From a virus (Duplodnaviria > Caudoviricetes), in IMG/VR virus record IMGVR_UViG_2926965794_000002, positions 1 to 64,000 of that record: a DNA stretch of 64,000 bases; one strand, given 5' to 3'. This document shows, in pieces, positions 1,625 to 14,879 of the stretch (position 1 is the stretch's first letter; each line of letters starts with the position of its first letter). The notes under the pieces are model-generated. The model did no database searches and was not told where the DNA came from. It saw nothing but the letters and a program-made list of their open reading frames with translations. Both the position numbers and the translations under genes were made by a program.

Positions 1625-1650
1625 ACCTCTAATTCCCCATGGAGACAGCA

Positions 1651-2115: not shown

Positions 2116-2125
2116 AGAGATTGAG

Positions 2126-2314: not shown

Positions 2315-2619
2315 GGTATCTCGTCCGCTGCTGCTGCGAGCCGGACAAGATCCTCGGCTATCTCACCGTCCCGCACGAAATGCGTAACGGCGAGCGCTAT
2401 CCGATTTGCCGCATGGATCAGTTGCTCATCAACGCCCGTCCCTTTGAACCCTCCGAGCTCGTCCATTCGAAGATCGAAACCGCGCTGTTTCGCACCCTGA
2501 TTAACGCGGACGGAAACCGCGAGATCGCCGTCTACTCCGATGATCGGCCGATCGAGTTTTGGCGTGGAGTTCGAGGTTTCGAGGAAGTGGTCGCAGGCAC
2601 TGGGGTTGAACCAGCCTAG
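2311..2619 (+). CDS. Hypothetical protein reading into tRNA antisense
   Basis: Coupled start; last codons overlap tRNA(CAT). Confidence 0.55.
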   Translation: MRYLVRCCCEPDKILGYLTVPHEMRNGERYPICRMDQLLINARPFEPSELVHSKIETALFRTLINADGNREIAVYSDDRPIEFWRGVRGFEEVVAGTGVEPA

Positions 2620-2662
2620 CCGCCCTTATGAGAGGCAGCCCCTACCCGACCGAGGGCCTGCG
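2588..2662 (-). tRNA. tRNA(CAT), Met or Ile2
   Basis: Loop CTCATAA; CGCAGGC/GCCTGCG-A-CCA. Confidence 0.8.
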
Positions 2663-2681
2663 AAAGGAAGGAATTCACGAA

Positions 2682-3113
2682 ATGCCGCGTCCGATAGACA
2701 AAGACCGCCAATTGACCGACCTGCTCGCAACTGCGGAAGCCTTCCGTGTCGCAATGATCGAGAGCGGTGCCGTGAACAGCGTTGGTCATGATCGATATTT
2801 CGATCAACTTCGCGCTTTGGAGCGCGCGCTTCAGCCGCTCAACTATCTCATTCCCCCGGATGACGTGAAGCCGGCCGTGGAATCAGACATCGCGATCGCT
2901 GTCACTATGCTTTGCCCGCGGCGAGACTGCTCCATCAAGATCAGGCGTGGCGAAGAAACCTGCATGGGGTGGCCCGGGCCCACCTATGACAGGGACGGCA
3001 AGCGAACCGACCGCGGCGATCCGAACCGAGTCCAATTCGCTGCAAGGTGTGAGCGATGTGAGAAGGCATGGTCCGTGCGCACTAGATACGAACAGATCGA
3101 GGATGTCCGATGA
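2682..3113 (+). CDS. Hypothetical protein with C-terminal Cys pairs (possible Zn finger); stop abuts tRNA-Gln
   Basis: CPRRDC and CERC; AAGGA RBS. Confidence 0.6.
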   Translation: MPRPIDKDRQLTDLLATAEAFRVAMIESGAVNSVGHDRYFDQLRALERALQPLNYLIPPDDVKPAVESDIAIAVTMLCPRRDCSIKIRRGEETCMGWPGPTYDRDGKRTDRGDPNRVQFAARCERCEKAWSVRTRYEQIEDVR

Positions 3114-3189
3114 TGGCAGGCGCGACAGGACTCGAACCTGTGGATGTCGGAATCAAAATCCGATGCCTTACCAACTTGGCTACGCGCCC
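3114..3189 (-). tRNA. tRNA-Gln(TTG)
   Basis: TCGGA-TTTTGAT-TCCGA; CCA end. Confidence 0.92.
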
Positions 3190-3194
3190 ATGAT

Positions 3195-3271
3195 TGGTCC
3201 TGCCAACGGGAGTCGAACCCGCGATGTCCAGCGTTGAAAGCGCCGTACCCTTTCCACCAGGCGATGGCAGG
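3195..3271 (-). tRNA. tRNA-Glu(TTC)
   Basis: CGGCG-CTTTCAA-CGCTG; CCA end. Confidence 0.88.
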
Positions 3272-3396
3272 CCGTTTGCCGCCCACAATTTCCGCGGGTA
3301 GGATGCCGATCGCCGGAACGTTGTTACCGCGGCGGCCGGCACTCGAGTGGAGGGCCCCCGGGGAGATTTCAGTCTCCTCGGGGTTTCCTTGGTGAT

Positions 3397-3470
3397 TGGT
3401 GCGGGCTGCCGGACTCGAACCGACTTAGCCTGGGTGGAAACCAGGTGATCAGCCTATGACCCAAACCCGC
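3397..3470 (-). tRNA. tRNA-Gly(TCC)
   Basis: CCTGG-TTTCCAC-CCAGG; CCA end. Confidence 0.88.
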
Positions 3471-3484
3471 GTAAGGAGTATGAA

Positions 3485-3700
3485 ATGGACGAGAACTCTC
3501 AGCTGATGTCCCTGCTCGAAGACAAAGCAAGGTCCCTGCGAGACGGCCACCTGACCATCCTGCGCTTCACGACAAACTGGCGGGTTGGTTTCGGTACGCC
3601 CACCGATCGCTACGACATCGGCAAGGCCGCCGAGGGACCGACATTCGCGGCGGCGGCGCGCAACGCATTAGCCAATCCCGAGCAGCACTGCCTCTATTAG
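3485..3700 (+). CDS. Small hypothetical protein; stop abuts tRNA-Ser
   Basis: TAAGGAG RBS; TAG 3698-3700. Confidence 0.7.
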   Translation: MDENSQLMSLLEDKARSLRDGHLTILRFTTNWRVGFGTPTDRYDIGKAAEGPTFAAAARNALANPEQHCLY

Positions 3701-3787
3701 TGGCGGAGAGGACAGGGATCGAACCTGCGCGTCCCGAAGGACTCGGCGCCTTAGCAAAGCGCTGCCTTACCGCTCGGCCACCTCTCC
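3701..3787 (-). tRNA. tRNA-Ser(GCT)
   Basis: Loop TTGCTAA, long variable arm, G73-CCA. Confidence 0.93.
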
Positions 3788-3801
3788 AATTGGAAACGAT
3801 C

Positions 3802-4044
3802 ATGGAAATCCTGCACAGATCCCTTGCTGACCCCGTCGCCGGAAGGATCACGGCGGACGGATACGTTGAGGGTCCAGCCAGCGAAGTGTCGGCCCAGGCG
3901 AGCTACACCTTCGAGGCCGACATTGATGGTCGCTGGCACCGCTGGACCGGGCAGCGCCCTGAGATCGTCGGCGATCGCGCGCGCTTCTGGCTGCGCGACG
4001 GAACACCGATCGGAAGCACCGAGCTCCGCAGATCTCCGGATTGA
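3802..4044 (+). CDS. Small hypothetical protein
   Basis: ATG 15 nt past tRNA-Ser 5' end; 80 aa. Confidence 0.55.
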   Translation: MEILHRSLADPVAGRITADGYVEGPASEVSAQASYTFEADIDGRWHRWTGQRPEIVGDRARFWLRDGTPIGSTELRRSPD

Positions 4045-4156
4045 CCGCCGGCCTCGCCTGTCCCTAATTGCGCGCGCGCCCCGAGGGAGGGTCTGTCGCA
4101 GTCGCTCGGGACGCACGCCCGCTCTTGGCCGCACCAGGAGCGGGCATTTTCATGCA

Positions 4157-4233
4157 TGGCGATCGCCGCCGGACTCGAACCGGCAACCTCCGCGGTAGGA
4201 ACGCGGCGCTCTGTCCAGTTGAGCTAGGCGACC
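4157..4233 (-). tRNA. tRNA-Arg(CCT)
   Basis: CCGCG-TTCCTAC-CGCGG. Confidence 0.93.
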
Positions 4234-4290
4234 GTTGATGCAGGCCTGCCGAGCAGCTACGATCCGAGCTTTCCAAACGGGGTCTTTTGC

Positions 4291-4866
4291 GTGTGGCAGT
4301 GGCGTAGGAAAGCGGCGGGGTGGGCTCCCATCATCGGTTGGTTCTCCGTACTCATCGGCCCGTCCGCAGCCGAACTGTTGAAGCGGTGGATGGAGCGAAA
4401 CGGGTACTTCGATCATCCGGACCAAGGGGTTGCGTGGCTCGTCTCCGTAGTGGCCGGCCTAGCCCAGTCGCACTGGTTCTATCCACTCCTCGCGTTCCTG
4501 TTTGGTCTGTCGATCGGTCTTTGGGCCGATCGGGTCCTGCGCCGGCTGGCGAATGAGCAAGGTGGCGAACTCACAAACCTAGGGCGCTCGCTGCGCGGCA
4601 TGGCAGAGAGCGTGCGGCAAAGCCAAGGTGGCTTCAGAAGCACCTGGCCCGAGAATGTCGAGCACCTTCGCGGACCTCTCGAATCCTATTTTCTCACGCT
4701 GAAAAGCGATTGGAAGATCGCGCCGCTGCCGGCCTCGGTCTTCGAACTGAACCATGGGGCGCAGATCCTGATCGAATACCTTGATCATGTTGGCTCGCAC
4801 CTGATGGGGCGGCAGTTGAAGGCCGCGCAGAACAAGGCTCGCAATTTGGCGGCAGAGATCGGCTGA
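4291..4866 (+). CDS. Membrane protein with N-terminal TM helices
   Basis: Hydrophobic segments; stop 3 nt from tRNA-Arg CCA. Confidence 0.7.
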   Translation: MWQWRRKAAGWAPIIGWFSVLIGPSAAELLKRWMERNGYFDHPDQGVAWLVSVVAGLAQSHWFYPLLAFLFGLSIGLWADRVLRRLANEQGGELTNLGRSLRGMAESVRQSQGGFRSTWPENVEHLRGPLESYFLTLKSDWKIAPLPASVFELNHGAQILIEYLDHVGSHLMGRQLKAAQNKARNLAAEIG

Positions 4867-4869
4867 TCG

Positions 4870-4944
4870 TGGCGAGCGCACGAGGACTCGAACCTCGATT
4901 CCGGGCTTAGAAGGCCCGCGCCTATCCCGTTGACGGATACGCCC
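4870..4944 (-). tRNA. tRNA-Arg(TCT)
   Basis: CGGGC-CTTCTAA-GCCCG. Confidence 0.9.
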
Positions 4945-5005
4945 TTTTCGTCGGCATGCAAAAGATCTGAAAAATAATCCTCGGTTTTGGCGTTTGAGTG
5001 CGCGT

Positions 5006-5392
5006 ATGCCATATCAGCGCTTCTTCATAGTCGGCGGACCGGCCCGTGAACGCTTGAAGCGCTTCATCGCCGAGACCGGAAAGCGACTCCACTCGGAAAA
5101 GATGCTGTTTCGCAGGGCCGGGTTTGTAGCCCGCCGCTACGGTGAACCGATCTCGGCCTGTCCGACGAACCTCGGCGGGTTTCCCAACGTGCATTGGCTC
5201 GAGGGATATGCCGGCAAGATCGCACCGAGCCGTGACGTCATCGACGGCGCCTTCAACATGACGCCGGCGGAGCACGTTGTAGCCTTCACCGACTGGACAT
5301 ATTCGCTTGGCCTGCCGGCAGAGATGGCAGCAAAACTGGTTGCTGGCGTTCGGTCGGGATATCGCACTGATGTTCTACCGATCGTGCAATGA
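5006..5392 (+). CDS. Hypothetical protein; stop abuts tRNA-Cys
   Basis: 128-aa ORF filling the inter-tRNA gap; TGA 5390-5392. Confidence 0.55.
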   Translation: MPYQRFFIVGGPARERLKRFIAETGKRLHSEKMLFRRAGFVARRYGEPISACPTNLGGFPNVHWLEGYAGKIAPSRDVIDGAFNMTPAEHVVAFTDWTYSLGLPAEMAAKLVAGVRSGYRTDVLPIVQ

Positions 5393-5467
5393 TGGAAGCC
5401 CCGGCCGGTGCTACCCCGGCTCATAGCGGTTTTGCAGACCGCCGCGTTCCTGTTTCGCCACGGGGCC
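5393..5467 (-). tRNA. tRNA-Cys(GCA) with non-canonical T-loop GGTAGCA
   Basis: GCGGT-CTGCAAA-ACCGC; U73-CCA. Confidence 0.85.
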
Positions 5468-5471
5468 AAAT

Positions 5472-5549
5472 TGGCAGGGGATGACGGATTTGAACCGCCG
5501 ATACCGCGTTCAGAGCGCGGCGCTTTGGGCCAGGCTAAGCTAATCCCCG
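5472..5549 (-). tRNA. tRNA-Gln(CTG)
   Basis: CCGCG-CTCTGAA-CGCGG. Confidence 0.9.
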
Positions 5550-5555
5550 TCAACA

Positions 5556-5634
5556 TGGTCAGCGCGGGTGGATTCGAACCACCGATCCCCTGCTTCCAAG
5601 GCAGGTAGGGACGGCCAGGCTCCCCTACACGCTG
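5556..5634 (-). tRNA. tRNA-Pro(TGG)
   Basis: CCTGC-CTTGGAA-GCAGG. Confidence 0.9.
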
Positions 5635-5639
5635 ATAAC

Positions 5640-5716
5640 TGGCCTTCCGGACAGGACTCGAATCTGCATACCTTCGCGTTCGTAGCGCGCTGCTCCACCA
5701 GTTGAGCTACCGGAAG
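5640..5716 (-). tRNA. tRNA-Arg(ACG)
   Basis: Loop CTACGAA; CCA end. Confidence 0.87.
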
Positions 5717-5911
5717 ATGATTTCTCGCCTCGCCGAGGTTTCCCCTCGACTTCTCGTCTCGATGCGCGCGGCGCGCTTCGCCTCAGACCGGCCGATCGCT
5801 CCGGTCCGCCTCGAGATCACGTCCAGCGCTGCGCAGATCCGCGCGCGACCGAAGAAGATGCCGGCACTGACCGACTCTCCACCGTGTCGCCTCCTCGCAC
5901 CCGCTTCGGAT

Positions 5912-5986
5912 TGGCGCAGCCAACGGGACTCGAACCCGTGTCGACCGGTTGAGAACCGGGCATCCTGACCACTAGACGATGGCTGC
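5912..5986 (-). tRNA. tRNA-Glu(CTC)
   Basis: Loop TTCTCAA; CCA end. Confidence 0.92.
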
Positions 5987-5993
5987 TTGGAAA

Positions 5994-6067
5994 TGGCTCC
6001 CCGATCAGGACTCGAACCTGAATGAACCGGTTAACAGCCGGGTCGCTTGCCATTAGCGGATCGGGAA
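5994..6067 (-). tRNA. tRNA-Asn(GTT)
   Basis: Loop CTGTTAA; G73-CCA. Confidence 0.9.
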
Positions 6068-6074
6068 ATGACGA

Positions 6075-6150
6075 TGGTGGAGACGCGGGGACTCGAACCC
6101 CGGACCGACTGCTTGCAAAACAGCTGCTCTCGCCGCTGAGCTACGTCCCC
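6075..6150 (-). tRNA. tRNA-Ala(TGC)
   Basis: Loop TTTGCAA; G3:U70. Confidence 0.93.
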
Positions 6151-6204
6151 AATTGCTTTACAAAACCGCCGTTTCGCTTGTCGGAAACGGCGTTTCCCTT
6201 GTCA

Positions 6205-6279
6205 TGGTGCCCGGAAATGGAATCGAACCACTGACGCGCACGCCTTCAACGTGCCGCTCTACCGCTGAGCTATCCGGGC
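6205..6279 (-). tRNA. tRNA-Phe(GAA)
   Basis: GCACG-TTGAAGG-CGTGC. Confidence 0.92.
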
Positions 6280-6311
6280 AATTTGCGAGTTTGCGCAAAT
6301 GCGCAAGTTGA

Positions 6312-6385
6312 TGGTGCGGGCACCGGGAGTCGAACCCGGGCTGTGAGAGTGGCACTCTCACCGACTACCGTAATCATTTACCCGC
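6312..6385 (-). tRNA. tRNA-Gly(GCC), G32-C38
   Basis: TGAGA-GTGCCAC-TCTCA. Confidence 0.85.
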
Positions 6386-6390
6386 GAATT

Positions 6391-6475
6391 TGGTGGGTAA
6401 CCCTGGAATCGAACCAGGAAGGCGCATAGGCGCAGGCGTTACAGGCCCGCTCAGTCCCCAGACTTGGCGTTACCC
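6391..6475 (-). tRNA. tRNA-Tyr(GTA)
   Basis: Loop CTGTAAC, long variable arm, A73-CCA. Confidence 0.87.
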
Positions 6476-7610
6476 AGAGTGTGCTTACGTCGGGCAGGAC
6501 TCATGCCGGCTCTCCCCCACCCAAAGGCCCCGAACGATGCTCCGTGATCCGGGCCGCTAGCCCAAGGGCTGGCGATAACCGACAGTTTATGTTTACGATC
6601 ACCGGAGGTTACCCCTCTCAACCGGCAGACCCAGCGCTAAGGCAAACATGAAGATCGACTCATTCAAGAATGAACTGCGGAGCGCCCTCCAAACAATTTG
6701 CGCTGAGAATAAATGGAGCTTCGACAACGTTAAACAACGCGGGATGGCTTTTGAAAATTGGTGCTTCAATTTGCTGAGCGAGCGCTATCCCGCGGCCGAT
6801 AACGATCCCTCCTTGTGCATCATCCGAGGAGATGACGCTGGGATCGACATCTTTTTTGAAAGCAAGGAAACGGACGAGATCTATATCGTCCAGTGCAAGC
6901 ATCCCAGAATTGCTGGCTCCGATCCAATCCCGGAAGGAGACGTGAAGTCGTTTTTTTCAAACTATAAGCTATTGAGCGACCGCACGTATCTAGCCCAGCG
7001 AAAGACCACCAACCCGAAGTTGGAGGAGCTAGCTAATGAGTTCGAGTATTGGCTCAAGCAGCGCTACCTGATTCACTTCATCTTTATAAGCTCCGGAGAG
7101 TCGTCAGACAAAACCGACGCACTGATCGACAAATTCACGAAGGACAACCAAAATCAAAACGTCAAGTTCGACGTTTTGGACATCTCAGGGCTGAGGGATG
7201 AATTTGTTTCGGTAAAAAGCATCGAGGAGAAATATCCCGATACAATTAGTCTGACCCTAGCTGAAAATCATTTCATGCAACCAGACGGCACACTACGCAA
7301 TCTCACCTTTGCGATCCGCGGCAACGCTCTCAAGCAGATCGCCATGGATCACAAAGATAGTCTTTTCAATTGGAATATCAGACGTTTCTTAGGGCGCAAG
7401 GGTGAGGTCAACACTGGCCTCAACAAGACGCTTACCGATGAGCCACAAAATTTCTACTATTTCAATAATGGCATATCCGCGCTTTGCGAAGACTTCGAGT
7501 TCAATCCCAAGACAGGAAAACTGGTCATTCAGAAGTTGCAGATCGTGAACGGAGCGCAGACGGTTGGCGCGCTCAAGCACGCAATAGTCGATAAATTGAA
7601 AGACACTCTA

Positions 7611-8458
7611 GGTGGTGTGGACTCTAAGGATTCCCTTTTGAGAGCAAATCAGATTCAAGGCTTCTTTTTGGGAGGCGGCCTTGGGTGTGATGGAGCGTTT
7701 GGTGTTGAGCGACGCGGCCTGGGAGCGCATGGCGCCGCTGATCATAGGCCGGCCCGATCAGAAGGGCTCGACCGGGCGGGACAACCGGATGTTTGTGGAA
7801 GGTGTGCTTTGGATCGTGCGTACGGGCTCTCCTTGGCGTGATCTTCCGGAGGCTTTTGGAGATTGGAACAGCGTGTTCCGGCGGTTCAGTCGATGGAGCC
7901 GCAAGGGTGTCTGGTGCCGCATCTTCGAGGCGATGTCCGAGGATCCGGACTTCGAATATCTGATCGTCGATTCCACCATTGTCCGGGCGCATCAGCACGC
8001 CGCCGGGGCGAAAAAAGGGGGTCTGAAGATCAAGCGATCGGGCGCTCGCGCGGCGGCCTGAGCACGAAGATACATATGGCCGTACGCGGCTTGGGATGCC
8101 CCGTGCGGTTCACGCTCACCGCGGGCCAGAAGGGCGATGCACCACAAGCCGCTGCATTAATCGAGGGGCTGCCCGCCGAGGTCGTCATCGCCGATACGGC
8201 TTATGACGCCGATCGTTTGCGCCAAGACATCGCCGCCAAAAAGGCGCTCGCCGTCATCCCCAACAACCCCTCGCGAGCCCTCAAATATCCGCTCGACAAA
8301 CATCTCTATGCCCAGCGCCATCTCGTGGAATGCTGCTTCAGCAAGCTCAAGCAGTTCCGACGCGTCGCAACCCGCTTCGAAAAGACCGCCCGGAATTACC
8401 GGGCCGTCGTCACTCTCGCTGCCATCGTCCTATGGCTGCGATAAGTGTCCACACCACC
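7611..8458 (+). mobile_element. IS5-family element (IS427-like), 848 bp
   Basis: TIR GGTGGTGTGGAC/GTCCACACCACC; TA duplication in a CTAG target. Confidence 0.92.
7690..8444 (+). CDS. IS5 transposase, two ORFs joined by a -1 frameshift
   Basis: WRDLPEAFGDW, IVDST, GRSRGGLSTKIH, RHLVECCF..LKQFRRVATRFEK; AAAAAAGGGG at about 8011. Confidence 0.9.
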
Positions 8459-9279
8459 TAGTTCTTGTAAAACTTACGGCCGTAAAGCATGCGACCCGAG
8501 AGAAGGGTATAGCGGCTTCCTTAATCAAGACCAATAATACGCAAAATACCCTTCGGGTGCCGGACTTTCGCTCAAACGATCCGATACAACTTTGGCTTGA
8601 ATCTAAGTTCAAAGCGACAAAGCCACGCGGAGACATGGCTCAGATCGCATACGGCAGAAAGCGTCCCTACCCTCGCGCCAACTCGACAACGTCGGTCCTC
8701 AAACTACAAGACCTCGGCAAAATAAGATATGCTTGGTATCACGACCCACGCATTCCGATTTCAGATCCAGCAAAGCTGTTTCAATTGCCGGAAGAGAACG
8801 GGCTGTACGGCTACTCTTTCGGAGTAGATGGAGACATCACCGAAATGTGGTCGGAGCAGCAATTCAAGGAGACCCTCTTGGCCATACACGCGTATGACAA
8901 GATAGTCGCTGAACTGGAGAAGCTTCAAAAGTCTAACGAGGACCTCAAGCAAGTGAGCCGTCTGAAATATTACGGCCTGAAGCTATTCAAATTCTACGTC
9001 GACCAGATGCTCCCATCGACACTCGACGTAACAATGGAGGACCTCTTCGCGTTTGGCGGAAAGTTCAACTCTTTTTTCGACAGAGCAAATCGAATCATTG
9101 GACTAACACTTTCGCAATCATACAAAGAAATTCTGACTCGCGAGGAAGGAACAGCCTTTTCACTTCCGCGCGACGCAAAGGTTTGGGAACTGGTGAAGCG
9201 GAAATTCGACGACAATCTCGCAGTGTTTCGACTTGCGCAACAGCAGTGACTCTGGCCTCGGCCCCTAACGGCGGCAGAT

Positions 9280-9356
<77 letters not shown>

Positions 9357-9472
9357 ATAATCGTGCAAAGGGTACAAACTCCTTTGCGGCGCAGACGTAC
9401 ATCCGGCCTGGCGCGATCGTTTGGCATCGTTAGCCCGACGACTAAATTTCGTTCATGGCCGAACTGAGTCAT

Positions 9473-9560
9473 TGGCGGGCAGCCGAGGAATCGAACCCCC
9501 ATCGCTTTCGCGAGCCGCGGTTTTCAAGACCGCTGTCAGACCATTCCGACTAGACTGCCC
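9473..9560 (-). tRNA. tRNA-Ser(TGA)
   Basis: Loop CTTGAAA, long variable arm. Confidence 0.88.
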
Positions 9561-9564
9561 AATG

Positions 9565-9642
9565 TGGCTTCCCCTGCTGGACTCGAACCAGCGGCCTCGG
9601 CATTCGGACGGCCGCGCTCTGACTCCGCTGAGCTAAGGGGAA
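9565..9642 (-). tRNA. tRNA-Arg(CCG)
   Basis: Loop GTCCGAA with a 31-39 mismatch; CCA end. Confidence 0.8.
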
Positions 9643-9815
9643 AAACTAATGATCCCGTCTGCGCGTCCCCCTATCGCCTGTAGTGGGGACGTCTTTTTTG
9701 GAGGCACGAGAGTAAGTACGCACCCTAGTTGCCAAACTCTCTCAAGATGCGGTCGCGGTCCTGCTCGTGGAGGGCGAGTTTCCTCACGGTTGCTACGCAT
9801 GTGGTGAGCGAGGCG

Positions 9816-10760
9816 TCAGGGCAGCTTCTGCTCAGCCTCAGCCAGAAAAAGGATGGTCGAGGCCGTTAGATGAAGGACGTAAGCCACCAGTTCTTTCGGA
9901 ATTTGAGCCGAGGGGGCAGCACCCGCCCCGTGGCCACCTAACCGATTTCTCGCGGTTGGCACGCCCGATTCCAACACGCTACGGAGGCCGTTGAAGTGCG
10001 TTTGCCAGAAGCTGGGTATGAGGCCATTGTCGTAGCAGGCCCTGATGAGTTCACTTGCAGTGGCATTGGCACTAATTGCCCATCCTCGCTTCGCGCACAT
10101 AATTTTCATCGTGCTTTCGAAAGCCTTGTTACAATTTAGCAGAGCCTCGGCATGTTTACCGTGCCGGTAGCTCTCATGCGCATCCAAGAACTCTTTCTGG
10201 GCATTTGCGTAACGAGCATTCCGCAAGAGTTGTAGCGCAGGCTTCACGATCTCTGTGTGCGTTAGCTGATTGTCGATGCGGATGATTTTTCCGTCAGCAT
10301 ACTCGTAACCGACAGCATTCTCCTTGAACCGAGCGTTCAGCTCAGAAATTGCATCATCGGCGATTTCTTCAGCGTTGCGACGATTCAGATAATTCCATTG
10401 ACGAGTGTAGTTCTCGATGACGGTGGCGGTGATCTCAATTACGTCCAGGACGCGCTCGACGTTCGCTTCCGTCAAGAAGAACTCGCACAGCTCTCCGAAG
10501 GCGTTGCGGCTATCATAAGGGGTGCGGTTGTTCTTTGTGAGAGTAAAGACTTGATACTCACGACGCAGTATCTCGACAATATCCTGATAGGTAGATCGGA
10601 TCTTGTCTTCGATACTGACTGCCGGATTGCCAATCGCATCGGTCCAGATGTGGATGATCTGGACGCGAAGGCCTTCAGGTACCTTGTCGTAAGTGTACAC
10701 TTCGGCGGGAACGCCTCGTTCGGCCTTTCGCCTTTTCGAGAACAGGTTGAAGATTGCCAT
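9816..10760 (-). CDS. STM4504/CBY_0614-like AbiJ-N plus HEPN-like abortive infection protein
   Basis: LFSKR..VYTYD..P..LRVQI N-terminus; C-terminal RNRLGGHG (Rx4-6H). Confidence 0.75.
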   Translation of the reverse strand: MAIFNLFSKRRKAERGVPAEVYTYDKVPEGLRVQIIHIWTDAIGNPAVSIEDKIRSTYQDIVEILRREYQVFTLTKNNRTPYDSRNAFGELCEFFLTEANVERVLDVIEITATVIENYTRQWNYLNRRNAEEIADDAISELNARFKENAVGYEYADGKIIRIDNQLTHTEIVKPALQLLRNARYANAQKEFLDAHESYRHGKHAEALLNCNKAFESTMKIMCAKRGWAISANATASELIRACYDNGLIPSFWQTHFNGLRSVLESGVPTARNRLGGHGAGAAPSAQIPKELVAYVLHLTASTILFLAEAEQKLP

Positions 10761-10779
10761 CTCGGCCTCCGGGAACGAC

Positions 10780-11106
10780 GGGATTTATACCCGACAGAGT
10801 TCCTTGCAAGAAGGTTGATGACGTCAGAACGGCTCCCGCGAGGGTTGCTAGACGGCCTTTTCCCAAGATTTCTTCATGCCCCTGCCCGTCCTTGCCGGCT
10901 CCTCGCTTACCGTTGTCCTTCGCGGGAGCGGATGCCAGCGGCTTGGGCATTCATGGCGGTCGGTCCAGCTTTTAAAAGCCTCGTCTGCAAACTGCCACCA
11001 CATCGCGCATTCAGGGAACGGGCACCGCCCAATGTCCGCGTCGCCGCGGCCGCTGCAGGAAATCAGAATCTACGCACCGCCGGCGGTGATCGCAATCGCC
11101 GCCGGC
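10780..11106 (-). ncRNA. Candidate structured ncRNA downstream of the HNH gene
   Basis: No credible ORF; 10-bp long-range stem 10832-41/10920-29, crossing pairing 10862-67/10942-47, hairpin 11079-11106. Confidence 0.4.
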
Positions 11107-11110
11107 TGGC

Positions 11111-11647
11111 TTATTTCTCGAGCTCGACATCCCAGTACAGGTAGTCCTGCCAGGACTCGTGCAGGAAGTTCGGCGGGAAGAGCCGCTGCGCCGCCAGCAG
11201 GTCATGCTGGCTGGGCTCGAACGGCGCCCTCAGCGGCTTCCAGATCTGCCGATCCTTGAGCATGTTGCACGGGCTGCATGCCGCAACGATGTTTGTCCAT
11301 TCGGTCTTGCCGCCGAGCGCCCGCGGCACGACGTGGTCGAACGTGAGCTCGCCGCGGAGGTGCTGCTCGCCGCAATACTGGCAGCGGAAGCGATCGCGGA
11401 GAAAGACGTTAAACCGCGTGAAGGCGACTCGAGCCGGCGGCCGGACATAGTCGCGCAGCGCGATGACCGACGGCAGCCGCATAGTCGTCGACGGACTCCG
11501 GATGACTTGATCGTACTCCGCGACGACGACGTGAGATCCCCGCACCACTGCCTTGACGGAGTCTTCCCAACCGAACAGCGACAGCGGAAAGTAACTTAAG
11601 GGTTGGAAGTCGGCGTTGAGAACCAGCGCCGGACTTGCGGCAAACAT
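11111..11647 (-). CDS. McrA-like HNH endonuclease
   Basis: LVLNADFQPL, FTRFNVFLRDRFRCQYCG, LTFDHVVPR, WTNIVAACSPCN. Confidence 0.92.
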   Translation of the reverse strand: MFAASPALVLNADFQPLSYFPLSLFGWEDSVKAVVRGSHVVVAEYDQVIRSPSTTMRLPSVIALRDYVRPPARVAFTRFNVFLRDRFRCQYCGEQHLRGELTFDHVVPRALGGKTEWTNIVAACSPCNMLKDRQIWKPLRAPFEPSQHDLLAAQRLFPPNFLHESWQDYLYWDVELEK

Positions 11648-11711
11648 CGTCGACCCCCTTTGATTGCGTTGCGGTTTCTTGCTTCAAAGAAGAAGCGAGG
11701 ATGATTTACCG

Positions 11712-11786
11712 TGGTAGGCGCAGCCGGATTCGAACCGACGACCGAGCCGTTATGAGCGGCTGGCTCTACCGCTGAGCTAGACGCCC
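11712..11786 (-). tRNA. tRNA(CAT), probably Ile2
   Basis: AGCCG-CTCATAA-CGGCT, Ile2-like body. Confidence 0.85.
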
Positions 11787-11790
11787 GAAT

Positions 11791-11867
11791 TGGTCGGCGT
11801 GGCAGGATTTGAACCTGCGGCCCCCTGCTCCCGAAGCAGATGCGCTACCAGGCTGCGCCACACGCCG
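11791..11867 (-). tRNA. tRNA-Pro(CGG)
   Basis: Loop TTCGGGA. Confidence 0.93.
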
Positions 11868-11902
11868 GAAATTGCTAATTTGAGGACAGTAAGGAGTACC
11901 CA

Positions 11903-12178
11903 ATGTCTAATAAGCCCTCGAACGACTGCCCATCCCCGGCATGTAAGGGGAAAAGCTACATGCAGAGACCGCTGAGCCCTGATTTCTGGAAGACAATGTC
12001 GGCAGCTGAGCAGCGACGGATCTACTCGACAGGAGACACTCTCACCGGCATCGGCAGCGAGGCGATGCATTGTCACCACTGCGGGTCCGTCTATCTGAGG
12101 TCGACGAAGGAATGCAGGATCGTCGGCAGGATCGATGAAGACGACGACGGCGGTGAACAAAAATGGACACCGGTCTAG
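11903..12178 (+). CDS. Small Zn-ribbon-like protein
   Basis: CPSPAC and CHHC; TAAGGAG RBS. Confidence 0.65.
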   Translation: MSNKPSNDCPSPACKGKSYMQRPLSPDFWKTMSAAEQRRIYSTGDTLTGIGSEAMHCHHCGSVYLRSTKECRIVGRIDEDDDGGEQKWTPV

Positions 12179-12184
12179 CCAAAC

Positions 12185-12258
12185 TGGCGCCCCTGACGAG
12201 GATCGAACTCGCCTTCCCGCATCGACAGTGCGGTCCCTTCCCAGATGGGTACAGGGGC
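12185..12258 (-). tRNA. tRNA-Asp(GTC)
   Basis: CCGCA-CTGTCGA-TGCGG; G73. Confidence 0.88.
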
Positions 12259-12364
12259 AGTCAGCTGCGACACTTGGTCCACGCCGTCAGAATAGAAGCA
12301 ATTTTGGGATCGCGGTACGCTACCTGGCGTTGCAAGGCTGTCCAATCAGAACGTGGAGGCCCAA

Positions 12365-12796
12365 ATGCGTATTTTCATTCTTCTTGTGACCTTGTTAGCG
12401 ATCGCGCCTGCACTAGCCGCCGACATGCCCAATACGAAGCGACCACGCGGCGTCCTGAACTGCACTCCGGCTGATGGGGTATATTTGTGCAGGGCAGATT
12501 TTCATTTGTCGTGCGACAAAGGAAAAGTAATACCCTTCCCGGTACCCGGCAAGGCGATCGACAATACCGACTACTTCATTCCCGACGTAGGCGATTTGAT
12601 TCCTGGCACCGCAGATTGCGTGACGCAGGAAGTGAAAGGCACCGGGTACATCGATCTCCTGGATGCAAATCGGCGGCATCTCAAGATCCACTATGGTTGT
12701 GAGGCGACATATACTGATGACGCGTTTGCCTATGGGTACTGCAGCGTGCAGTCTTACGACGTAATGCGGAGACGCGAGTCCTCGCCGAGAATGTAG
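12365..12796 (+). CDS. Secreted Cys-rich protein
   Basis: Signal peptide MRIFILLVTLLAIAPALA; GGAGG RBS; 6 Cys. Confidence 0.7.
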   Translation: MRIFILLVTLLAIAPALAADMPNTKRPRGVLNCTPADGVYLCRADFHLSCDKGKVIPFPVPGKAIDNTDYFIPDVGDLIPGTADCVTQEVKGTGYIDLLDANRRHLKIHYGCEATYTDDAFAYGYCSVQSYDVMRRRESSPRM

Positions 12797-12805
12797 ATCG
12801 ATTCA

Positions 12806-12886
12806 TGGTGGGCCGGCAGGAATCGAACCAGCATGGTTTCCCGTCGGCCCCTCAGACTAATGCGTCTACCGTTTCGCCACGGCCGC
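12806..12886 (-). tRNA. tRNA-Leu(GAG), degenerate or pseudo
   Basis: Loop CTGAGGG; mismatches in anticodon and T stems; acceptor 1 nt short. Confidence 0.65.
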
Positions 12887-12894
12887 CAGCCGCT

Positions 12895-13323
12895 TCACTT
12901 CCGCAATTTACAAGGATTGCCTTTCTGGCTGCACTCGTAGATCGCTTGCGAATAACCGGTGAACGAGGCAATAGCGCCCCCAAATCCGATTACTGCGCCC
13001 GTAATAAATACGGTGAAGATCGTCGATAGCCGTTTGTCCGCCAAGATCTTCAATCGCTCTTCTGGCTTATCGCCGGTGATGATCCGGTTTATCGCTTCTT
13101 CAGAATTGCTCCAGACGATTATCAGCGCGATACCCGCGCTCAGCAAACCGAACGTACCAGTCCCCAGCGCGAGAAGGGATGAGGAATCCGTGCCCTTGTC
13201 CTTCATAAACGCAACAGCGGTGGCCAACACGCCGATGTTTGCGAGCGCAACCGTGTTGGCCACGCGGTACTTGAGTTCAGCCCATGCCTGCACAAGTTTG
13301 AGCTCATATTCTCGTAGCTTCAT
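12895..13323 (-). CDS. Membrane protein (about 3 TM)
   Basis: Hydrophobic helices; lower GC. Confidence 0.65.
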   Translation of the reverse strand: MKLREYELKLVQAWAELKYRVANTVALANIGVLATAVAFMKDKGTDSSSLLALGTGTFGLLSAGIALIIVWSNSEEAINRIITGDKPEERLKILADKRLSTIFTVFITGAVIGFGGAIASFTGYSQAIYECSQKGNPCKLRK

Positions 13324-13423
13324 CGTGTCTTCTTGCGAACTATCCACCTAACCGCCCTCCTTCGATTCTCCCCCTCTGGTTGTACCAGCTTTTCCGCCTC
13401 GCGCGCATGCCTCGCGCAAGTGA

Positions 13424-13499
13424 CAGAGGACTTGCTCGGACTCGAACCGACGATGGCTTGCGCCGACGGATTAAGAATCCGCGCTGGGGGCACAGGTCC
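13424..13499 (-). tRNA. Degenerate tRNA-Lys(CTT)-like gene with long variable arm and truncated D-arm
   Basis: GCGGA-TTCTTAA-TCCGT, GGC-GCAA-GCC arm, TTCGAGT loop, no CCA. Confidence 0.55.
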
Positions 13500-13503
13500 G
13501 TGA

Positions 13504-13594
13504 TGGTGGACCGGGCGGGACTCAAACCCCCGATGTGGCCGTGAGGCCAGCCGGATTAAAAGTCCGGGCCGTTCGTCGCTACGGTAACCGGTCC
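13504..13594 (-). tRNA. tRNA with Lys(TTT) anticodon and long variable arm
   Basis: GGACCGG/CCGGTCC-A-CCA; CCGGA-CTTTTAA-TCCGG; TGGCC-TCAC-GGCCA arm. Confidence 0.8.
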
Positions 13595-13770
13595 ATCGTA
13601 TCGATGGGTGCGGCGGCCAGCCGCTCCGGTTTGGTGTGACGCTCTACGATCGCGTCGGCCTTTGCCTTCGCGCGCGCCAGCGCCGCCTGGCTCTCGATCG
13701 AGAGGAGGTGCACGCCCGGCGGCAGGATCGCCGACGGCACGCGCTGCATCAGCGTCGTCAGAACAACCAT
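13579..13770 (-). CDS. Small hypothetical protein, co-oriented with the tRNAs
   Basis: GAGGAGG RBS; 63 aa. Confidence 0.5.
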   Translation of the reverse strand: MVVLTTLMQRVPSAILPPGVHLLSIESQAALARAKAKADAIVERHTKPERLAAAPIDTMDRLP

Positions 13771-13788
13771 GATCGTCCTCCTCGTTGT

Positions 13789-13863
13789 TGGTGCACGCTG
13801 CTGGAATCGAACCAACTGCCACTCGCTTATCAGGCGAGGCCCTCACCGGTCGGACTAACGTGC
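13789..13863 (-). tRNA. tRNA-Ile(GAT)
   Basis: CTCGC-CTGATAA-GCGAG. Confidence 0.85.
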
Positions 13864-13894
13864 GTGATCGAAGTTGTGCAAAAGTTGCACGAGT

Positions 13895-13969
13895 TGGTGC
13901 GTCCGGACCGGATTGAACGGCCGACATTCGCCATGTCATAGCGATGCTCTCCCACTGAGCTACGGACGC
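13895..13969 (-). tRNA. tRNA-Val(GAC)
   Basis: Loop ATGACAT. Confidence 0.9.
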
Positions 13970-13973
13970 GAAT

Positions 13974-14048
13974 TGGTGCGCGCCGACGGGATCGAACCGC
14001 CGACATCCTGTGTGTAGGACAGGCGCTCTACCGCTGAGCTAGGCGCGC
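13974..14048 (-). tRNA. tRNA-Val(TAC), C33
   Basis: CCTGT-CCTACAC-ACAGG. Confidence 0.9.
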
Positions 14049-14165
14049 GTGACTTCCGCTTTTTCCTGCCTCGGGACGCTTTCCCATAGAGGCCGAAAAT
14101 AAAGCTGCTCGACCCTTTCCGGTTTGGCCTCGCGGGCGCGATTACCCAGTAGGAGGACCAAAACC

Positions 14166-14468
14166 ATGATCGACGATGACGATTTCGAAGAGCGCTTCGA
14201 GGAATTCTGCGAGCTCACCGATGATCAGGTCGACGCCGTGCTCGAGCGCGAGATGGCCGAGTACGTCAGATGGTGGAACACGCTGACCGCGATCCAGCAA
14301 TACCGGATCAGCCGGCGGACAGCGGTCGAAGGTTGCCTGACCTGGCGCAAGACGATCCGTGCCGGCTTCGACAGCGAGTTCTTCTTGGAGCAGCTGCGCA
14401 GCCGACAGAAGCGGCTGCTCAAGCTGCGGATCGAACTCGCGACCGGCGTCTATCCGGGCTCAGCGTGA
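14166..14468 (+). CDS. Hypothetical protein; stop abuts tRNA-Leu
   Basis: AGGAGG RBS; TGA 14466-14468. Confidence 0.7.
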   Translation: MIDDDDFEERFEEFCELTDDQVDAVLEREMAEYVRWWNTLTAIQQYRISRRTAVEGCLTWRKTIRAGFDSEFFLEQLRSRQKRLLKLRIELATGVYPGSA

Positions 14469-14547
14469 TGGTGCCCCGAGCAGGATTCGAACCTGCAAGG
14501 AAGACTGTTTTGAGCAGCCGGCGTCTACCGAATTCCGCCACCGGGGC
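14469..14547 (-). tRNA. tRNA-Leu(CAA) lacking the long variable arm
   Basis: GGCTG-CTCAAAA-CAGTC; Leu-type D-arm; about 6-nt variable region. Confidence 0.85.
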
Positions 14548-14555
14548 AGTTGTAA

Positions 14556-14639
14556 TGGTGCGGACGGAGGGGATCGAACCCACACTCCGAAGAACCGGTT
14601 CCTGAGACCGGCGCGTCTACCAAGTTCCGCCACGTCCGC
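14556..14639 (-). tRNA. tRNA-Leu(CAG)
   Basis: CCGGT-CTCAGGA-ACCGG. Confidence 0.9.
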
Positions 14640-14644
14640 ATTGA

Positions 14645-14720
14645 TGGTGCTGTCACCAGGGCTCGAACCTGGCGCCTCGACCCTACCAAGATCGCGCTCT
14701 ACCCGATGAGCTATGACAGC
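14645..14720 (-). tRNA. tRNA-Thr(GGT)
   Basis: Loop TTGGTAG. Confidence 0.9.
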
Positions 14721-14724
14721 GAAG

Positions 14725-14799
14725 TGGTGCCCGCAGCAGGGCTTGAGTCTGCGCGCGTCCGCCTACAATGCGGCTGCTCTCCATCTGAGCTATGCGGGC
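14725..14799 (-). tRNA. tRNA-Thr(TGT), degenerate T-loop
   Basis: Loop ATTGTAG; T-loop CTCAAGC. Confidence 0.78.
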
Positions 14800-14804
14800 T
14801 GACC

Positions 14805-14879
14805 TGGTGCCGGCGGCCAGATTTGAACTGGCGACCTTCGCGTTACGAGTGCGCTGCGCTGCCACTGCGCCACGCCGGC
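14805..14879 (-). tRNA. tRNA-Thr(CGT)
   Basis: Loop CTCGTAA. Confidence 0.88.

What the first reader, a model, noticed from the sequence alone, without database searches (positions are those of the whole stretch)
13424..13594. Lys-anticodon tRNAs with long (class II) variable arms
Seen: 13504-13594 has a perfect 7-bp acceptor, A73-CCA, a UUU anticodon and a 5-bp variable stem (UGGCC-UCAC-GGCCA). The neighbour at 13424-13499 has a CUU anticodon, a GGC-GCAA-GCC arm and a truncated D-arm. Established: in bacteria long arms are typical of Leu, Ser, Tyr and Sec, and tRNA-Lys is the target of anticodon nucleases such as PrrC and RloC. Inference: either nuclease-evading Lys tRNAs on a foreign body, or tRNAs charged by another synthetase that mistranslate Lys codons.
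Basis: partly seen in the sequence, partly recalled or inferred. Interest (0 to 1): 0.7.

Follow-up and report, generated by a model that had tools for sequence, protein, structure and literature searches.

The report
Prophage lysine tRNA with extra arm
A prophage that carries its own full set of tRNA genes makes its only lysine tRNA on the long-armed body plan that textbooks reserve for serine, leucine and tyrosine tRNAs. This design turns out to be conserved and widespread in phages, and it most likely still carries lysine.

Summary
It is a 91-nt tRNA gene with a UUU anticodon, A73-CCA, a 7-bp acceptor stem and a 19-nt variable region with a 5-bp stem. The neighbour at 13424-13499 has the stated features, but no tRNA finder calls it. 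It is best read as a decayed copy of a long-armed tRNA-Lys(CUU).

Both genes lie in a 35-gene tRNA array of a 110-kb provirus. The array covers all 20 amino acids, and the long-armed gene is its only lysine tRNA.

The arm is not a private insertion. I collected 144 distinct long-armed tRNA-Lys genes, mostly from phage tRNA arrays, including cultured Caulobacter phage CcrSwift. Their arms form hairpins far more often than shuffled sequence does.

Long-armed tRNAs of other isotypes keep the discriminator base of their own amino acid. In five Actinomycetota genomes, a long-armed gene is the only tRNA-Lys(UUU) that my patterns found. Lysine charging is therefore the best reading, and mischarging is unlikely.

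Escape from nucleases that cut tRNA-Lys is plausible but untested. The window's clade shares D-arm and T-arm blocks with phage tRNA-Tyr.

I found no paper that describes this design. This scan has already noted the same family on other DNA (Caulobacter, T5-like and deep-sea phages).

The parts
13504..13594 (-). Intact tRNA-Lys(UUU) gene, 91 nt, with a class II-type long variable arm. Layout in window coordinates: acceptor 13588-13594 and 13508-13514, A73 at 13507, CCA 13504-13506, D arm 13569-13584, anticodon arm 13551-13567, T arm 13515-13531.
   Evidence: ARAGORN. Rfam RF00005 29.8 bits. Read by hand. 97% identical to the gene of the syntenic provirus L012.
13558..13560 (-). Anticodon UUU, in the loop CUUUUAA.
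13532..13550 (-). 19-nt variable region: one unpaired C, a 5-bp stem with a UCAC loop (13536-13549), and a 4-nt 3' tail CAUC (13532-13535).
   Evidence: ARAGORN drawing. Identical in L012. The geometry (3-5-bp stem, 4-nt loop, 3-4-nt tail) matches the family consensus.
13424..13499 (-). Decayed copy (probable pseudogene) of a long-armed tRNA-Lys(CUU). Anticodon at 13473-13475; 14-nt variable region at 13452-13465 with the hairpin GGC-GCAA-GCC. The D arm is reduced to 8 nt, the acceptor and T stems each have one mismatch, and there is no CCA.
   Evidence: Sequence. No call by ARAGORN in any mode or by Rfam. 61 identical positions with the intact long-armed CUU gene of L008.
1539..14879 (-). The tRNA array that holds both genes. 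ARAGORN tRNAs. Rfam alone adds Cys(GCA) at 5396-5467 and Thr(UGU) at 14728-14799. All 20 amino acids are covered and nearly every gene encodes its CCA. Defence-type and mobile genes are interleaved.
   Evidence: Cargo genes.

Best explanation
13504-13594 encodes a working, prophage-borne lysine tRNA built on a class II, tRNA-Tyr-like body. The host's lysyl-tRNA synthetase charges it through the UUU anticodon and A73; the provirus has no synthetase of its own. It reads AAA and AAG as lysine for the phage. Within the array's complete set of tRNAs it is the only lysine member.

It belongs to a large family of long-armed tRNA-Lys genes. Most sit in phage and prophage tRNA arrays. The window's clade probably arose from a phage tRNA-Tyr-type scaffold by a change of anticodon.

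The re-shaped body has a structured extra arm next to the 3' strand of the anticodon stem, and a class II-type D arm. The likely benefit is that enzymes which recognise and cut the normal cellular tRNA-Lys handle this tRNA poorly, so lysine decoding continues during infection.

13424-13499 is the decayed partner for the CUU anticodon.

Shown: gene anatomy, conservation, family membership, hairpin signal, discriminator pattern, and its status as sole Lys tRNA. Inferred: charging with lysine, expression, and above all the protective role of the arm.
For: Anatomy and calls.

Selection for a folded tRNA:
- The syntenic provirus L012 has the same gene with 3 changes. Two of them keep pairing: G-C to G.U in the acceptor stem, and G.U where the window has G.G in the T stem.
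- Relatives with the same D arm have G19 with C56. The window and L012 have A19 with U56, a two-sided change that keeps the tertiary elbow pair.

Family:
- Two pattern scans of viral contigs gave 109 distinct long-armed tRNA-Lys genes (98 UUU, 11 CUU) in loci of 24.5-61.7% G+C.
- Genome contigs raised the total to 144.
- Cultured Caulobacter phage CcrSwift has an adjacent UUU (90 nt) and CUU (87 nt) pair, annotated in GenBank as tRNA-Lys.

The arm is structured:
- Mean folding energy of the variable region is -2.78 kcal/mol, against -0.63 for shuffles.
- Among 71 representatives at <=72% identity, 68 have a hairpin of >=3 bp, against 49.2 +/- 3.4 in shuffles (maximum 59 in 300 shuffles). 44 have >=4 bp, against 18.5 +/- 3.4.
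- Stem sequences differ widely between members.
- The four canonical stems show two-sided changes in 18 of 20 pairs.

Lysine identity:
- The discriminator is A in 89 of 109 genes.
- Long-armed tRNAs of other isotypes keep their own discriminator: Asn G 9/9, Cys U 9/9, Trp G 10/10, His C 4/4, Gly U 5/5.
- Lys arms have 3-5-bp stems and 3-4 unpaired nt on the 3' side. Ser arms have 5-7 bp, 1 unpaired nt and G73; Leu arms have 2 unpaired nt.
- This is the only Lys tRNA among 35 tRNAs in the whole provirus.
- The provirus has no class I or class II LysRS.
- In five Actinomycetota genomes the long-armed gene is the only tRNA-Lys(UUU) my patterns find, in one case between thiolase and Ada/AlkA genes. 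In contrast, 43 of 50 other genomes of the same order carry a normal-length one.

Tyr-like scaffold:
- A 20-nt D-arm motif of the window's clade occurs in viral contigs only in 36 tRNA-Lys(UUU) and 6 tRNA-Tyr(GUA) genes.
- The window's gene shares long identical D-arm and T-arm blocks with phage tRNA-Tyr of L260.
- With the anticodon masked, isotype HMMs place the window's gene nearest Tyr (13.9 bits, against Lys 8.1). They place 54 of 122 long-armed Lys genes nearest Tyr.

Plausibility of nuclease escape (from papers):
- PARIS AriB cuts tRNA-Lys(UUU) at C40-A41 and reads D-loop U16-U17, and T5's variant tRNA-Lys resists it (PMC12409363; PMC11464382).
Against: - The Rfam score is barely above threshold (29.8 against 29). 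The T stem has a G.G mismatch and the D loop lacks GG, so the window's copy could be slightly impaired.
- No expression data exist, and the simple scan found no promoter-like site.
- Charging was not tested. The scaffold keeps three features that bacterial TyrRS uses (G1-C72, A73, U35), so some tyrosine charging cannot be excluded.
- The protective role of the arm is pure inference. The host's own tRNA-Lys and defence genes were not available.
- In a sample of phage tRNA arrays chosen through tRNA-Asp, 0 of 38 tRNA-Lys genes were long-armed, while Asn (9/55) and Ile (6/47) were. Long arms are therefore neither the rule for phage tRNA-Lys nor special to lysine.
- GNRA loops are as common in Ser and Leu arms, so the loop type says nothing specific.
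- The actinobacterial genomes are metagenome bins, so absence of a normal gene is not proven.
Confidence: 0.55

Rival explanations
1. It is a working lysine tRNA, but the arm has no adaptive role. The arm is a neutral leftover from the class II (tRNA-Tyr-type) gene out of which this tRNA-Lys lineage arose by a change of anticodon. It is tolerated because LysRS, EF-Tu and the ribosome accept it.
For: - The window's clade shares its D-arm motif and T-arm block only with phage tRNA-Tyr.
- Phage arrays hold long-armed versions of many isotypes at a few per cent, and also short-armed tRNA-Leu, so phage tRNAs seem loose about body plan in general.
- Long-armed Lys is a minority form: 0 of 38 in the Asp-anchored sample.
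Against: - Some long-armed Lys genes have ordinary class I D arms plus an added arm (for example L013). Others have a host-like Lys acceptor stem with a class II-type D arm (the actinobacterial genes). One origin from Tyr does not cover all of them.
- The arm's hairpin and its 3-4-nt tail are kept across very divergent sequences, which suggests constraint on the arm itself. Any arm that exists may, however, need to fold simply to be tolerated.
Confidence: 0.22
2. It is a recoding or mistranslating tRNA. Another synthetase recognises the class II body (TyrRS most likely, else LeuRS or SerRS), and the tRNA inserts that amino acid at lysine codons, like allo-tRNAs or the V-arm tRNAs of nematodes.
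For: - The body is Tyr-like and has A73, G1-C72 and U35. By established knowledge these are determinants for bacterial TyrRS.
- LeuRS and SerRS do not read the anticodon (established knowledge; SerRS recognition summarised in PMC7609411).
Against: - It is the only Lys tRNA in a 20-amino-acid set.
- Both Lys anticodons occur in the family, and no other anticodon occurs on the window's Lys-type acceptor stem.
- The discriminator is A or U, not the G73 of Ser. The arm geometry differs from Ser and Leu arms.
- Other long-armed isotypes keep their own discriminators.
- Lys members differ consistently from the Tyr members in the acceptor stem.
- It is the sole tRNA-Lys(UUU) found in five cellular genomes.
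- The acceptor and T stems are 7 and 5 bp, not the 8/4 or 9/3 of allo-tRNAs.
Confidence: 0.08
3. The UUU gene, like its CUU neighbour, is a decaying relic that is no longer used.
For: - The covariance-model score is marginal.
- There is a G.G mismatch in the T stem where L012 has G.U.
- The adjacent CUU copy is clearly degraded.
- An insertion sequence and split genes in the array show ongoing decay.
Against: - The acceptor, anticodon, D and variable stems are perfect, and CCA is intact.
- The two-sided A19/U56 change is shared with L012.
- Only 3 differences from L012 across 91 nt.
- It is the only Lys tRNA in an otherwise complete set.
Confidence: 0.1

Closest known systems
Long-armed tRNA-Lys pair of phiCbK-like Caulobacter phages (for example CcrSwift, GenBank JX100809.1, tRNA-Lys at 48907-49003 and 48813-48899)
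   Same: Phages of alpha-proteobacteria. Adjacent UUU and CUU lysine tRNAs sit next to the tRNA-Leu genes of a tRNA array. Lengths are 87-90 nt, with a hairpin in the variable region followed by a 3-4-nt tail.
   Different: Those phages are virulent and about 220 kb; this is a 110-kb provirus. Their discriminator is U73; here it is A73. Here the CUU partner has decayed. The phiCbK genome paper lists the tRNAs but does not mention their arm (PMC3556154).
[quoted passage not shown]
   Same: A phage-encoded isoacceptor of a tRNA that defence nucleases cut. [quoted passage not shown]
   Different: The T5 variants escape through a few base substitutions. As far as the texts I read describe them, they keep the normal body plan of their isotype. 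Here the whole body plan is changed. Resistance is shown for T5 and only conjectured here.
Allo-tRNAs and 8/4 tRNAs (Mukai et al. 2017, PMC5389517; review PMC7609411) and, from my own knowledge, the V-arm tRNAs of nematodes
   Same: A long variable arm combined with an anticodon outside Leu/Ser/Tyr. Some occur in tRNA clusters of alpha-proteobacterial phages and in Acidobacteria.
   Different: Allo-tRNAs have an 8/4 or 9/3 acceptor/T-stem split, G73 or U73, a tRNA-Sec-like D arm, and scattered anticodons covering 35 codons. They are thought to be Ser acceptors or non-translational. The window's gene is 7/5 with A73, and its family carries only the two Lys anticodons.
Bacterial class II tRNA-Tyr
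   Same: A 3-5-bp variable stem with a 4-nt loop and a 3-4-nt 3' tail, A73, G1-C72 and U35. The same D-arm motif and T-arm block occur in phage tRNA-Tyr.
   Different: The anticodon is UUU, not GUA. The acceptor stem starts GGACC, against GGGUA or GGGGA in the Tyr genes that share the D arm. The array has its own separate, unrelated tRNA-Tyr at 6391-6475.
tRNA array units of mobile elements (Tran et al. 2015, PMC4758250; Morgado and Vicente 2018, PMC5966550)
   Same: A dense array of more than 20 tRNA genes on a mobile element, covering nearly all amino acids.
   Different: The first of those surveys (the only one I opened) deals with gene content and order, not tRNA body plan; the second I saw only in the search listing.

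Membership tests
Canonical bacterial tRNA-Lys (class I body) | Lys anticodon (UUU or CUU) in a 7-nt loop with U33 and A37 | tested here: met
   Loop CUUUUAA on a perfect 5-bp stem.
Canonical bacterial tRNA-Lys (class I body) | Discriminator A73 (a LysRS determinant, by established knowledge) | tested here: met
   A73 followed by an encoded CCA. A in 89 of 109 family members.
Canonical bacterial tRNA-Lys (class I body) | Short variable loop of 4-5 nt | tested here: not met
   19 nt with a 5-bp stem. Normal phage tRNA-Lys genes have 4-5 nt, and 43 Mycobacteriales genomes show the 5-nt form.
Canonical bacterial tRNA-Lys (class I body) | Charged by LysRS | not testable with these tools
   Needs an aminoacylation assay. 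The indirect support is listed under best explanation.
Class II tRNA (Leu, Ser, Tyr) | Long variable arm with a stem | tested here: met
Class II tRNA (Leu, Ser, Tyr) | Anticodon of Leu, Ser or Tyr | tested here: not met
   UUU.
tRNA-Ser identity set | G73, and a long stem with about 1 unpaired nt before the T stem | tested here: not met
   A73 and a 4-nt tail. Phage tRNA-Ser genes in the same loci have G73 in 51 of 70, mostly 4-7-bp stems (64 of 69 hairpins), and a tail of mostly 1 nt.
tRNA-Tyr identity set (bacterial) | A73, G1-C72, U35, G34 and a Tyr-type arm | tested here: inconclusive
   A73, G1-C72, U35 and the arm geometry are present. G34 and A36 are not. Whether TyrRS would accept it needs an assay.
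Allo-tRNA (Mukai 2017) | 12-bp acceptor branch split 8/4 or 9/3 | tested here: not met
   7-bp acceptor stem and 5-bp T stem. Definition taken from PMC5389517.
Phage anti-defence tRNA (nuclease-resistant isoacceptor) | Phage-encoded isoacceptor of a tRNA that defence nucleases target | tested here: met
   A provirus tRNA array. tRNA-Lys(UUU) is the target of PrrC and PARIS (PMC10264068, PMC12409363).
Phage anti-defence tRNA (nuclease-resistant isoacceptor) | Resists cleavage and rescues infection | not testable with these tools
   Needs cleavage and plaque assays.
Long-armed phage tRNA-Lys family (defined here) | 7/5 cloverleaf, Lys anticodon, variable region of 11-21 nt (mostly a 3-5-bp hairpin with a 3-4-nt 3' tail), located in a tRNA array | tested here: met
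   The window's arm has a 1-nt lead, 5-bp stem, 4-nt loop and 4-nt tail.

The most novel reading that the evidence does not exclude
Moving a class I tRNA (Lys here; also Asn, Thr, Cys, Trp and Met elsewhere) onto a class II-type body may be a general phage strategy. The new shape would hide essential tRNAs from defence nucleases that read tRNA shape and the D loop. The design may even have been adopted by cells: some Actinomycetota appear to have replaced their housekeeping tRNA-Lys(UUU) with a long-armed one.
Probability: 0.25. Interest if true: 0.8.

Novelty: new variant of a known kind. Interest (0 to 1): 0.6.

Why it matters
The textbook rule is that bacterial long variable arms belong to Leu, Ser, Tyr and Sec tRNAs. 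That rule underlies tRNA identity models and gene-finder isotype calls.

A conserved family of lysine tRNAs, and smaller sets for other amino acids, breaks the rule while keeping lysine-type features. This shows that LysRS, EF-Tu and the ribosome probably accept the extra arm. It also offers a natural test case for how synthetases and tRNA-cutting defence enzymes read tRNA shape.

If the arm protects against nucleases such as PrrC, RloC or PARIS, it would be a new counter-defence principle: a change of body plan rather than point changes. It would also be a design rule for nuclease-proof or orthogonal tRNAs.

For annotation, such genes will show a mismatch between anticodon and isotype model. 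They should not be dismissed as pseudogenes or as recoding tRNAs without a test.

Tried and rejected
- blastn of the 91-nt gene against cultured phage records found nothing. The 2.2-kb stretch gave only generic tRNA hits. The family was reached by pattern scans instead.
- RNAalifold on a MAFFT alignment of 67 members recovered the four standard stems but not the arm, because arms of different length are not aligned in register. I used register-free shuffle tests instead. No covariance model was built.
- A class-wide pattern search of 401 alpha-proteobacterial genomes gave matches at the level of the reversed-pattern control. Only the centre genome held a real long-armed Lys gene. In the genome-contig scan, 41 of 120 pattern-hit loci held a real long-armed tRNA-Lys gene. 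By my own estimate, about 165 chance hits were expected there.
- The idea that long arms are typical of phage tRNA-Lys was rejected: 0 of 38 in the Asp-anchored sample.
- The idea that GNRA loops mark a special docking function was rejected: they are equally common in Ser and Leu arms.
- The idea that the window's own tRNA-Tyr is the parent was rejected: they are not alike.
- A provirus-encoded tRNA-Lys nuclease or LysRS was looked for and not found. Pfam DUF4435, AAA_13, tRNA-synt_2 and tRNA-synt_1f all gave no match.
- The promoter and terminator scan was uninformative.
The supplement of Mukai 2017 is not held.
Full report
**Setting.** The window is the first 64 kb of a 109,940-base IMG/VR provirus record, about 90% complete.
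- Positions 29-57 kb encode siphovirus head, tail and packaging genes: terminase, portal, S49 protease, HK97-type capsid, tape measure and a J-like tail tip.
- The capsid protein is also on record on a 9.15-Mb NCBI contig, so the element sits in a large bacterial chromosome.
- Earlier notes of this scan call it a Bradyrhizobium-type prophage.
- The array's tRNA-His lacks G-1 and has A73. Mukai et al. describe this as typical of a group of alpha-proteobacteria (PMC5389517).
- Between 1.5 and 14.9 kb, all on the minus strand, ARAGORN tRNA genes. Rfam adds two more, which I read as Cys(GCA) and Thr(UGU).
- The rest of the provirus has no further tRNA.
- The set covers all 20 amino acids, and nearly every gene encodes its CCA.

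**The observation.**
- It has a perfect 7-bp acceptor stem, A73 and CCA. The anticodon stem is a perfect 5 bp with the loop CUUUUAA.
- The variable region is 19 nt: one C, a 5-bp stem with a 4-nt loop, and the tail CAUC.
- ARAGORN calls it tRNA-Lys(UUU). The general Rfam tRNA model gives 29.8 bits, just over its threshold of 29.
- The neighbour at 13424-13499 does have a CUU anticodon loop, a GGC-GCAA-GCC hairpin and only 8 nt in place of the D arm.
- The neighbour also has one mismatch each in the acceptor and T stems, and no CCA. No tool calls it, not even ARAGORN at a relaxed threshold or in its mode for D-armless tRNAs.
- It aligns best (61 identical positions) with intact long-armed tRNA-Lys(CUU) genes such as that of L008, and lacks about nine D-arm bases relative to them.
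- I read it as a decayed copy.

**Conservation in close kin.** A second provirus, L012 (108 kb), has the same local gene order.
- It carries the same UUU gene with three differences in 91 nt.
- One difference turns an acceptor G-C into G.U. One gives G.U where the window has the G.G mismatch.
- The arm is identical. L012's CUU gene is intact (89 nt, long-armed) but is a different paralogue.
- More distant relatives share the window's D arm. There the D loop reads G18 G19 and the T loop has C56. The window and L012 have G18 A19 and U56.
- That is a two-sided change keeping the 19-56 tertiary pair of the tRNA elbow. It argues that this lineage has been selected to fold as a tRNA.

**A large family.**
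- A pattern demanding a Lys anticodon stem-loop, an over-long gap and a T loop found 17 viral contigs.
- ARAGORN calls a long tRNA-Lys in these loci: 109 distinct sequences (98 UUU, 11 CUU). Variable regions are 11-21 nt, and locus G+C runs from 24.5 to 61.7%.
- The extra length follows from the search patterns. The cloverleaves and the structure of the arm do not.
- 89 of the 109 variable regions fold into a hairpin, with mean energy -2.78 kcal/mol against -0.63 for shuffles.
- Among 71 representatives at <=72% identity, 68 have a hairpin of at least 3 bp, against 49.2 +/- 3.4 in shuffles (maximum 59 of 300). 44 have at least 4 bp, against 18.5 +/- 3.4.
- Stem sequences differ freely, while the geometry is kept: a 3-5-bp stem, usually a 4-nt loop, and 3-4 unpaired bases before the T stem in 79 of 89.
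- The four standard stems show two-sided changes in 18 of 20 pairs.
- The design also occurs in cultured phages. Caulobacter phage CcrSwift has adjacent UUU (90 nt) and CUU (87 nt) genes, which GenBank annotates simply as tRNA-Lys.
- The phiCbK genome paper does not mention their shape (PMC3556154).

**How common, and where.**
- In a sample of phage tRNA arrays chosen through tRNA-Asp, none of 38 distinct tRNA-Lys genes was long-armed. The design is a minority form.
- The same sample held long-armed Asn (9/55), Ile (6/47), Thr (4/52) and Cys (2/30). It also held tRNA-Leu genes with short loops. Phage arrays are loose about body plan in general.
- In 185,579 species genomes, the general pattern hit at least 120 loci. 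41 of them hold a real long-armed tRNA-Lys.
- About 31 of those 41 sit in dense tRNA arrays, including a 34-tRNA array in an alpha-proteobacterial bin that has an adjacent UUU/CUU pair like the window's.
- Among 400 other sampled alpha-proteobacterial genomes, none was found.

**What amino acid?** Six lines point to lysine.
1. The discriminator is A73 here and in 89 of 109 family members.
2. Long-armed tRNAs of other isotypes in the same loci keep the discriminator of their own amino acid. Asn has G in 9/9, Cys U in 9/9, Trp G in 10/10, His C in 4/4 and Gly U in 5/5. The arm is therefore an add-on to an otherwise isotype-true tRNA, not a mark of Ser, Leu or Tyr identity.
3. The Lys arms differ from the Ser arms of the same phages (5-7 bp, 1 unpaired base, G73) and from the Leu arms (2 unpaired bases).
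4. In this provirus the gene is the only Lys tRNA in a complete set. In 73 of 106 Lys-anchored loci, no normal UUU gene lies in the fetched stretch.
5. The provirus has no LysRS of either class, so the host enzyme must serve.
6. A conserved lone 85-87-nt tRNA-Lys(UUU) occurs in Actinomycetota genomes.
   - In one it lies between thiolase and Ada/AlkA genes.
   - In all five such genomes it is the only hit to patterns that find both long and normal tRNA-Lys(UUU).
   - 43 of 50 other genomes of the same order have a normal-length gene. One comparator, G415, is unpublished, and the result does not depend on it.
   - These are metagenome bins, so absence is not proven. Five of five is nevertheless hard to explain by incompleteness.
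   - A long-armed tRNA as a cell's only AAA reader is hard to reconcile with anything but lysine charging.

**Where the body came from.**
- The 20-nt D-arm motif of the window's clade, including its unusual 3-nt connector, occurs in viral contigs in 42 tRNA calls: 36 tRNA-Lys(UUU) and 6 tRNA-Tyr(GUA), and no other isotype.
- The window's gene shares near-identical D-arm and T-arm blocks with the phage tRNA-Tyr of L260. Overall identity (65 positions) is only a little above that to other isotypes (60-62).
- Profile HMMs with the anticodon masked (74% correct on held-out normal tRNAs) put the window's gene nearest Tyr (13.9 bits; Lys 8.1). They put the 122 long-armed Lys genes nearest Tyr (54), Ser (40) or Lys (15). 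Class II models gain from the arm itself, so this is not independent evidence.
- The Lys arm geometry is closest to Tyr arms (3 bp, 3-nt tail).
- An origin from a phage tRNA-Tyr-type gene by a change of anticodon is the simplest reading for this clade.
- Other members have ordinary class I D arms, or host-like Lys acceptor stems. The family is therefore not simply one Tyr derivative.
- Because G1-C72, A73 and U35 are kept, I cannot exclude some charging by TyrRS.

**What the arm is for.** This part is inference.
- Papers show that tRNA-Lys(UUU) is a favoured target of defence nucleases: PrrC (PMC10264068) and PARIS AriB (PMC11464382).
- AriB cuts the 3' strand of the anticodon stem at C40-A41 and reads D-loop U16-U17. 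T5's own tRNA-Lys escapes by changes at those places (PMC12409363).
- A structured arm that emerges beside position 44, together with a class II-type D arm without U16-U17, changes exactly these surfaces.
- Nothing here tests resistance, however. The provirus has no AriB-like or PrrC/RloC-like gene of its own, and the host's defences are unknown.
- The neutral-leftover reading is therefore a serious rival.

**Literature and earlier notes.**
- Eight full-text searches found no description of 7/5 long-armed tRNA-Lys. Nor did the non-canonical tRNA review (PMC7609411), Mukai et al. 2017 (PMC5389517), the tRNAscan-SE 2.0 paper (PMC8450103) or the tRNA-array survey (PMC4758250).
- That library is incomplete, so a description may exist elsewhere.
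- After forming my reading, I looked up this scan's notes. The same family has been reported repeatedly on other DNA (Caulobacter phages, T5-like coliphages, a deep-sea phage), with the same conclusion.
- I verified the Caulobacter case myself.

**Verdict.** This is one real, conserved, long-armed tRNA-Lys(UUU) and one decayed CUU partner in a prophage tRNA array. It is a new variant of a known kind of gene and a member of a widespread family that appears to be undescribed in print. It is most likely charged with lysine, and the purpose of the arm is open.

Noticed in passing
window 14469-14547 (-), 12807-12886 (-): tRNA-Leu(CAA) has a variable loop of only 6 nt, the reverse breach of the class rule. 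tRNA-Leu(GAG) is 80 nt, folds poorly and scores 27.3 bits in Rfam, below threshold. Short-looped tRNA-Leu genes are frequent in phage arrays: 30 of 75 (not de-duplicated) in the Lys-anchored loci and 17 of 71 distinct genes in the Asp-anchored sample.
   Followed up: partly
window 9473-9560 (-): tRNA-Ser(UGA) scores best against the Rfam tRNA-Sec model (44.9 bits) and can be drawn with an 8-bp acceptor stem and a 4-bp T stem. That resembles the 8/4 tRNA-Ser that Mukai et al. reported in tRNA clusters of alpha-proteobacterial phages.
   Followed up: partly
window 2041-2115 (-): tRNA-His has no G-1 and has A73, the form described for a group of alpha-proteobacteria. This points to the host clade.
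   Followed up: no
window 6648-9249 (+), 9816-10760 (-), 11111-11647 (-): Defence-type cargo lies inside the tRNA array. An AIPR/AbiU-like gene appears to be split by a DDE transposase (7863-8444). There is also a protein with AbiJ_NTD4 plus DUF7014 (PADLOC candidate PDC-S32) and a PtuB-like HNH nuclease.
   Followed up: partly
L190, L195, L196, L228, L232 (Actinomycetota genome bins): A conserved lone 85-87-nt long-armed tRNA-Lys(UUU) with a host-like acceptor stem, in at least one case in a housekeeping neighbourhood. It appears to be the only tRNA-Lys(UUU) of these genomes, while 43 of 50 sampled genomes of the same order have the normal form. Arm stems differ by two-sided changes (GCG/CGC against GCGC/GCGC).
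   Followed up: partly
L005, L007, L013, L014, L018 and others (viral contigs): Long-armed versions of His, Asn, Cys, Arg, Gln, Glu, Met, Thr and Trp tRNAs. Each keeps the discriminator typical of its isotype, and the His genes pair a leading G with C73. Loci that hold a long-armed Lys hold more of these than the Asp-anchored sample does.
   Followed up: partly
window 5396-5467 (-), 14728-14799 (-): Two tRNA genes, Cys(GCA) and Thr(UGU), are missed by ARAGORN but found by Rfam (40.4 and 44 bits). The Thr gene has an unusual T arm.
   Followed up: partly
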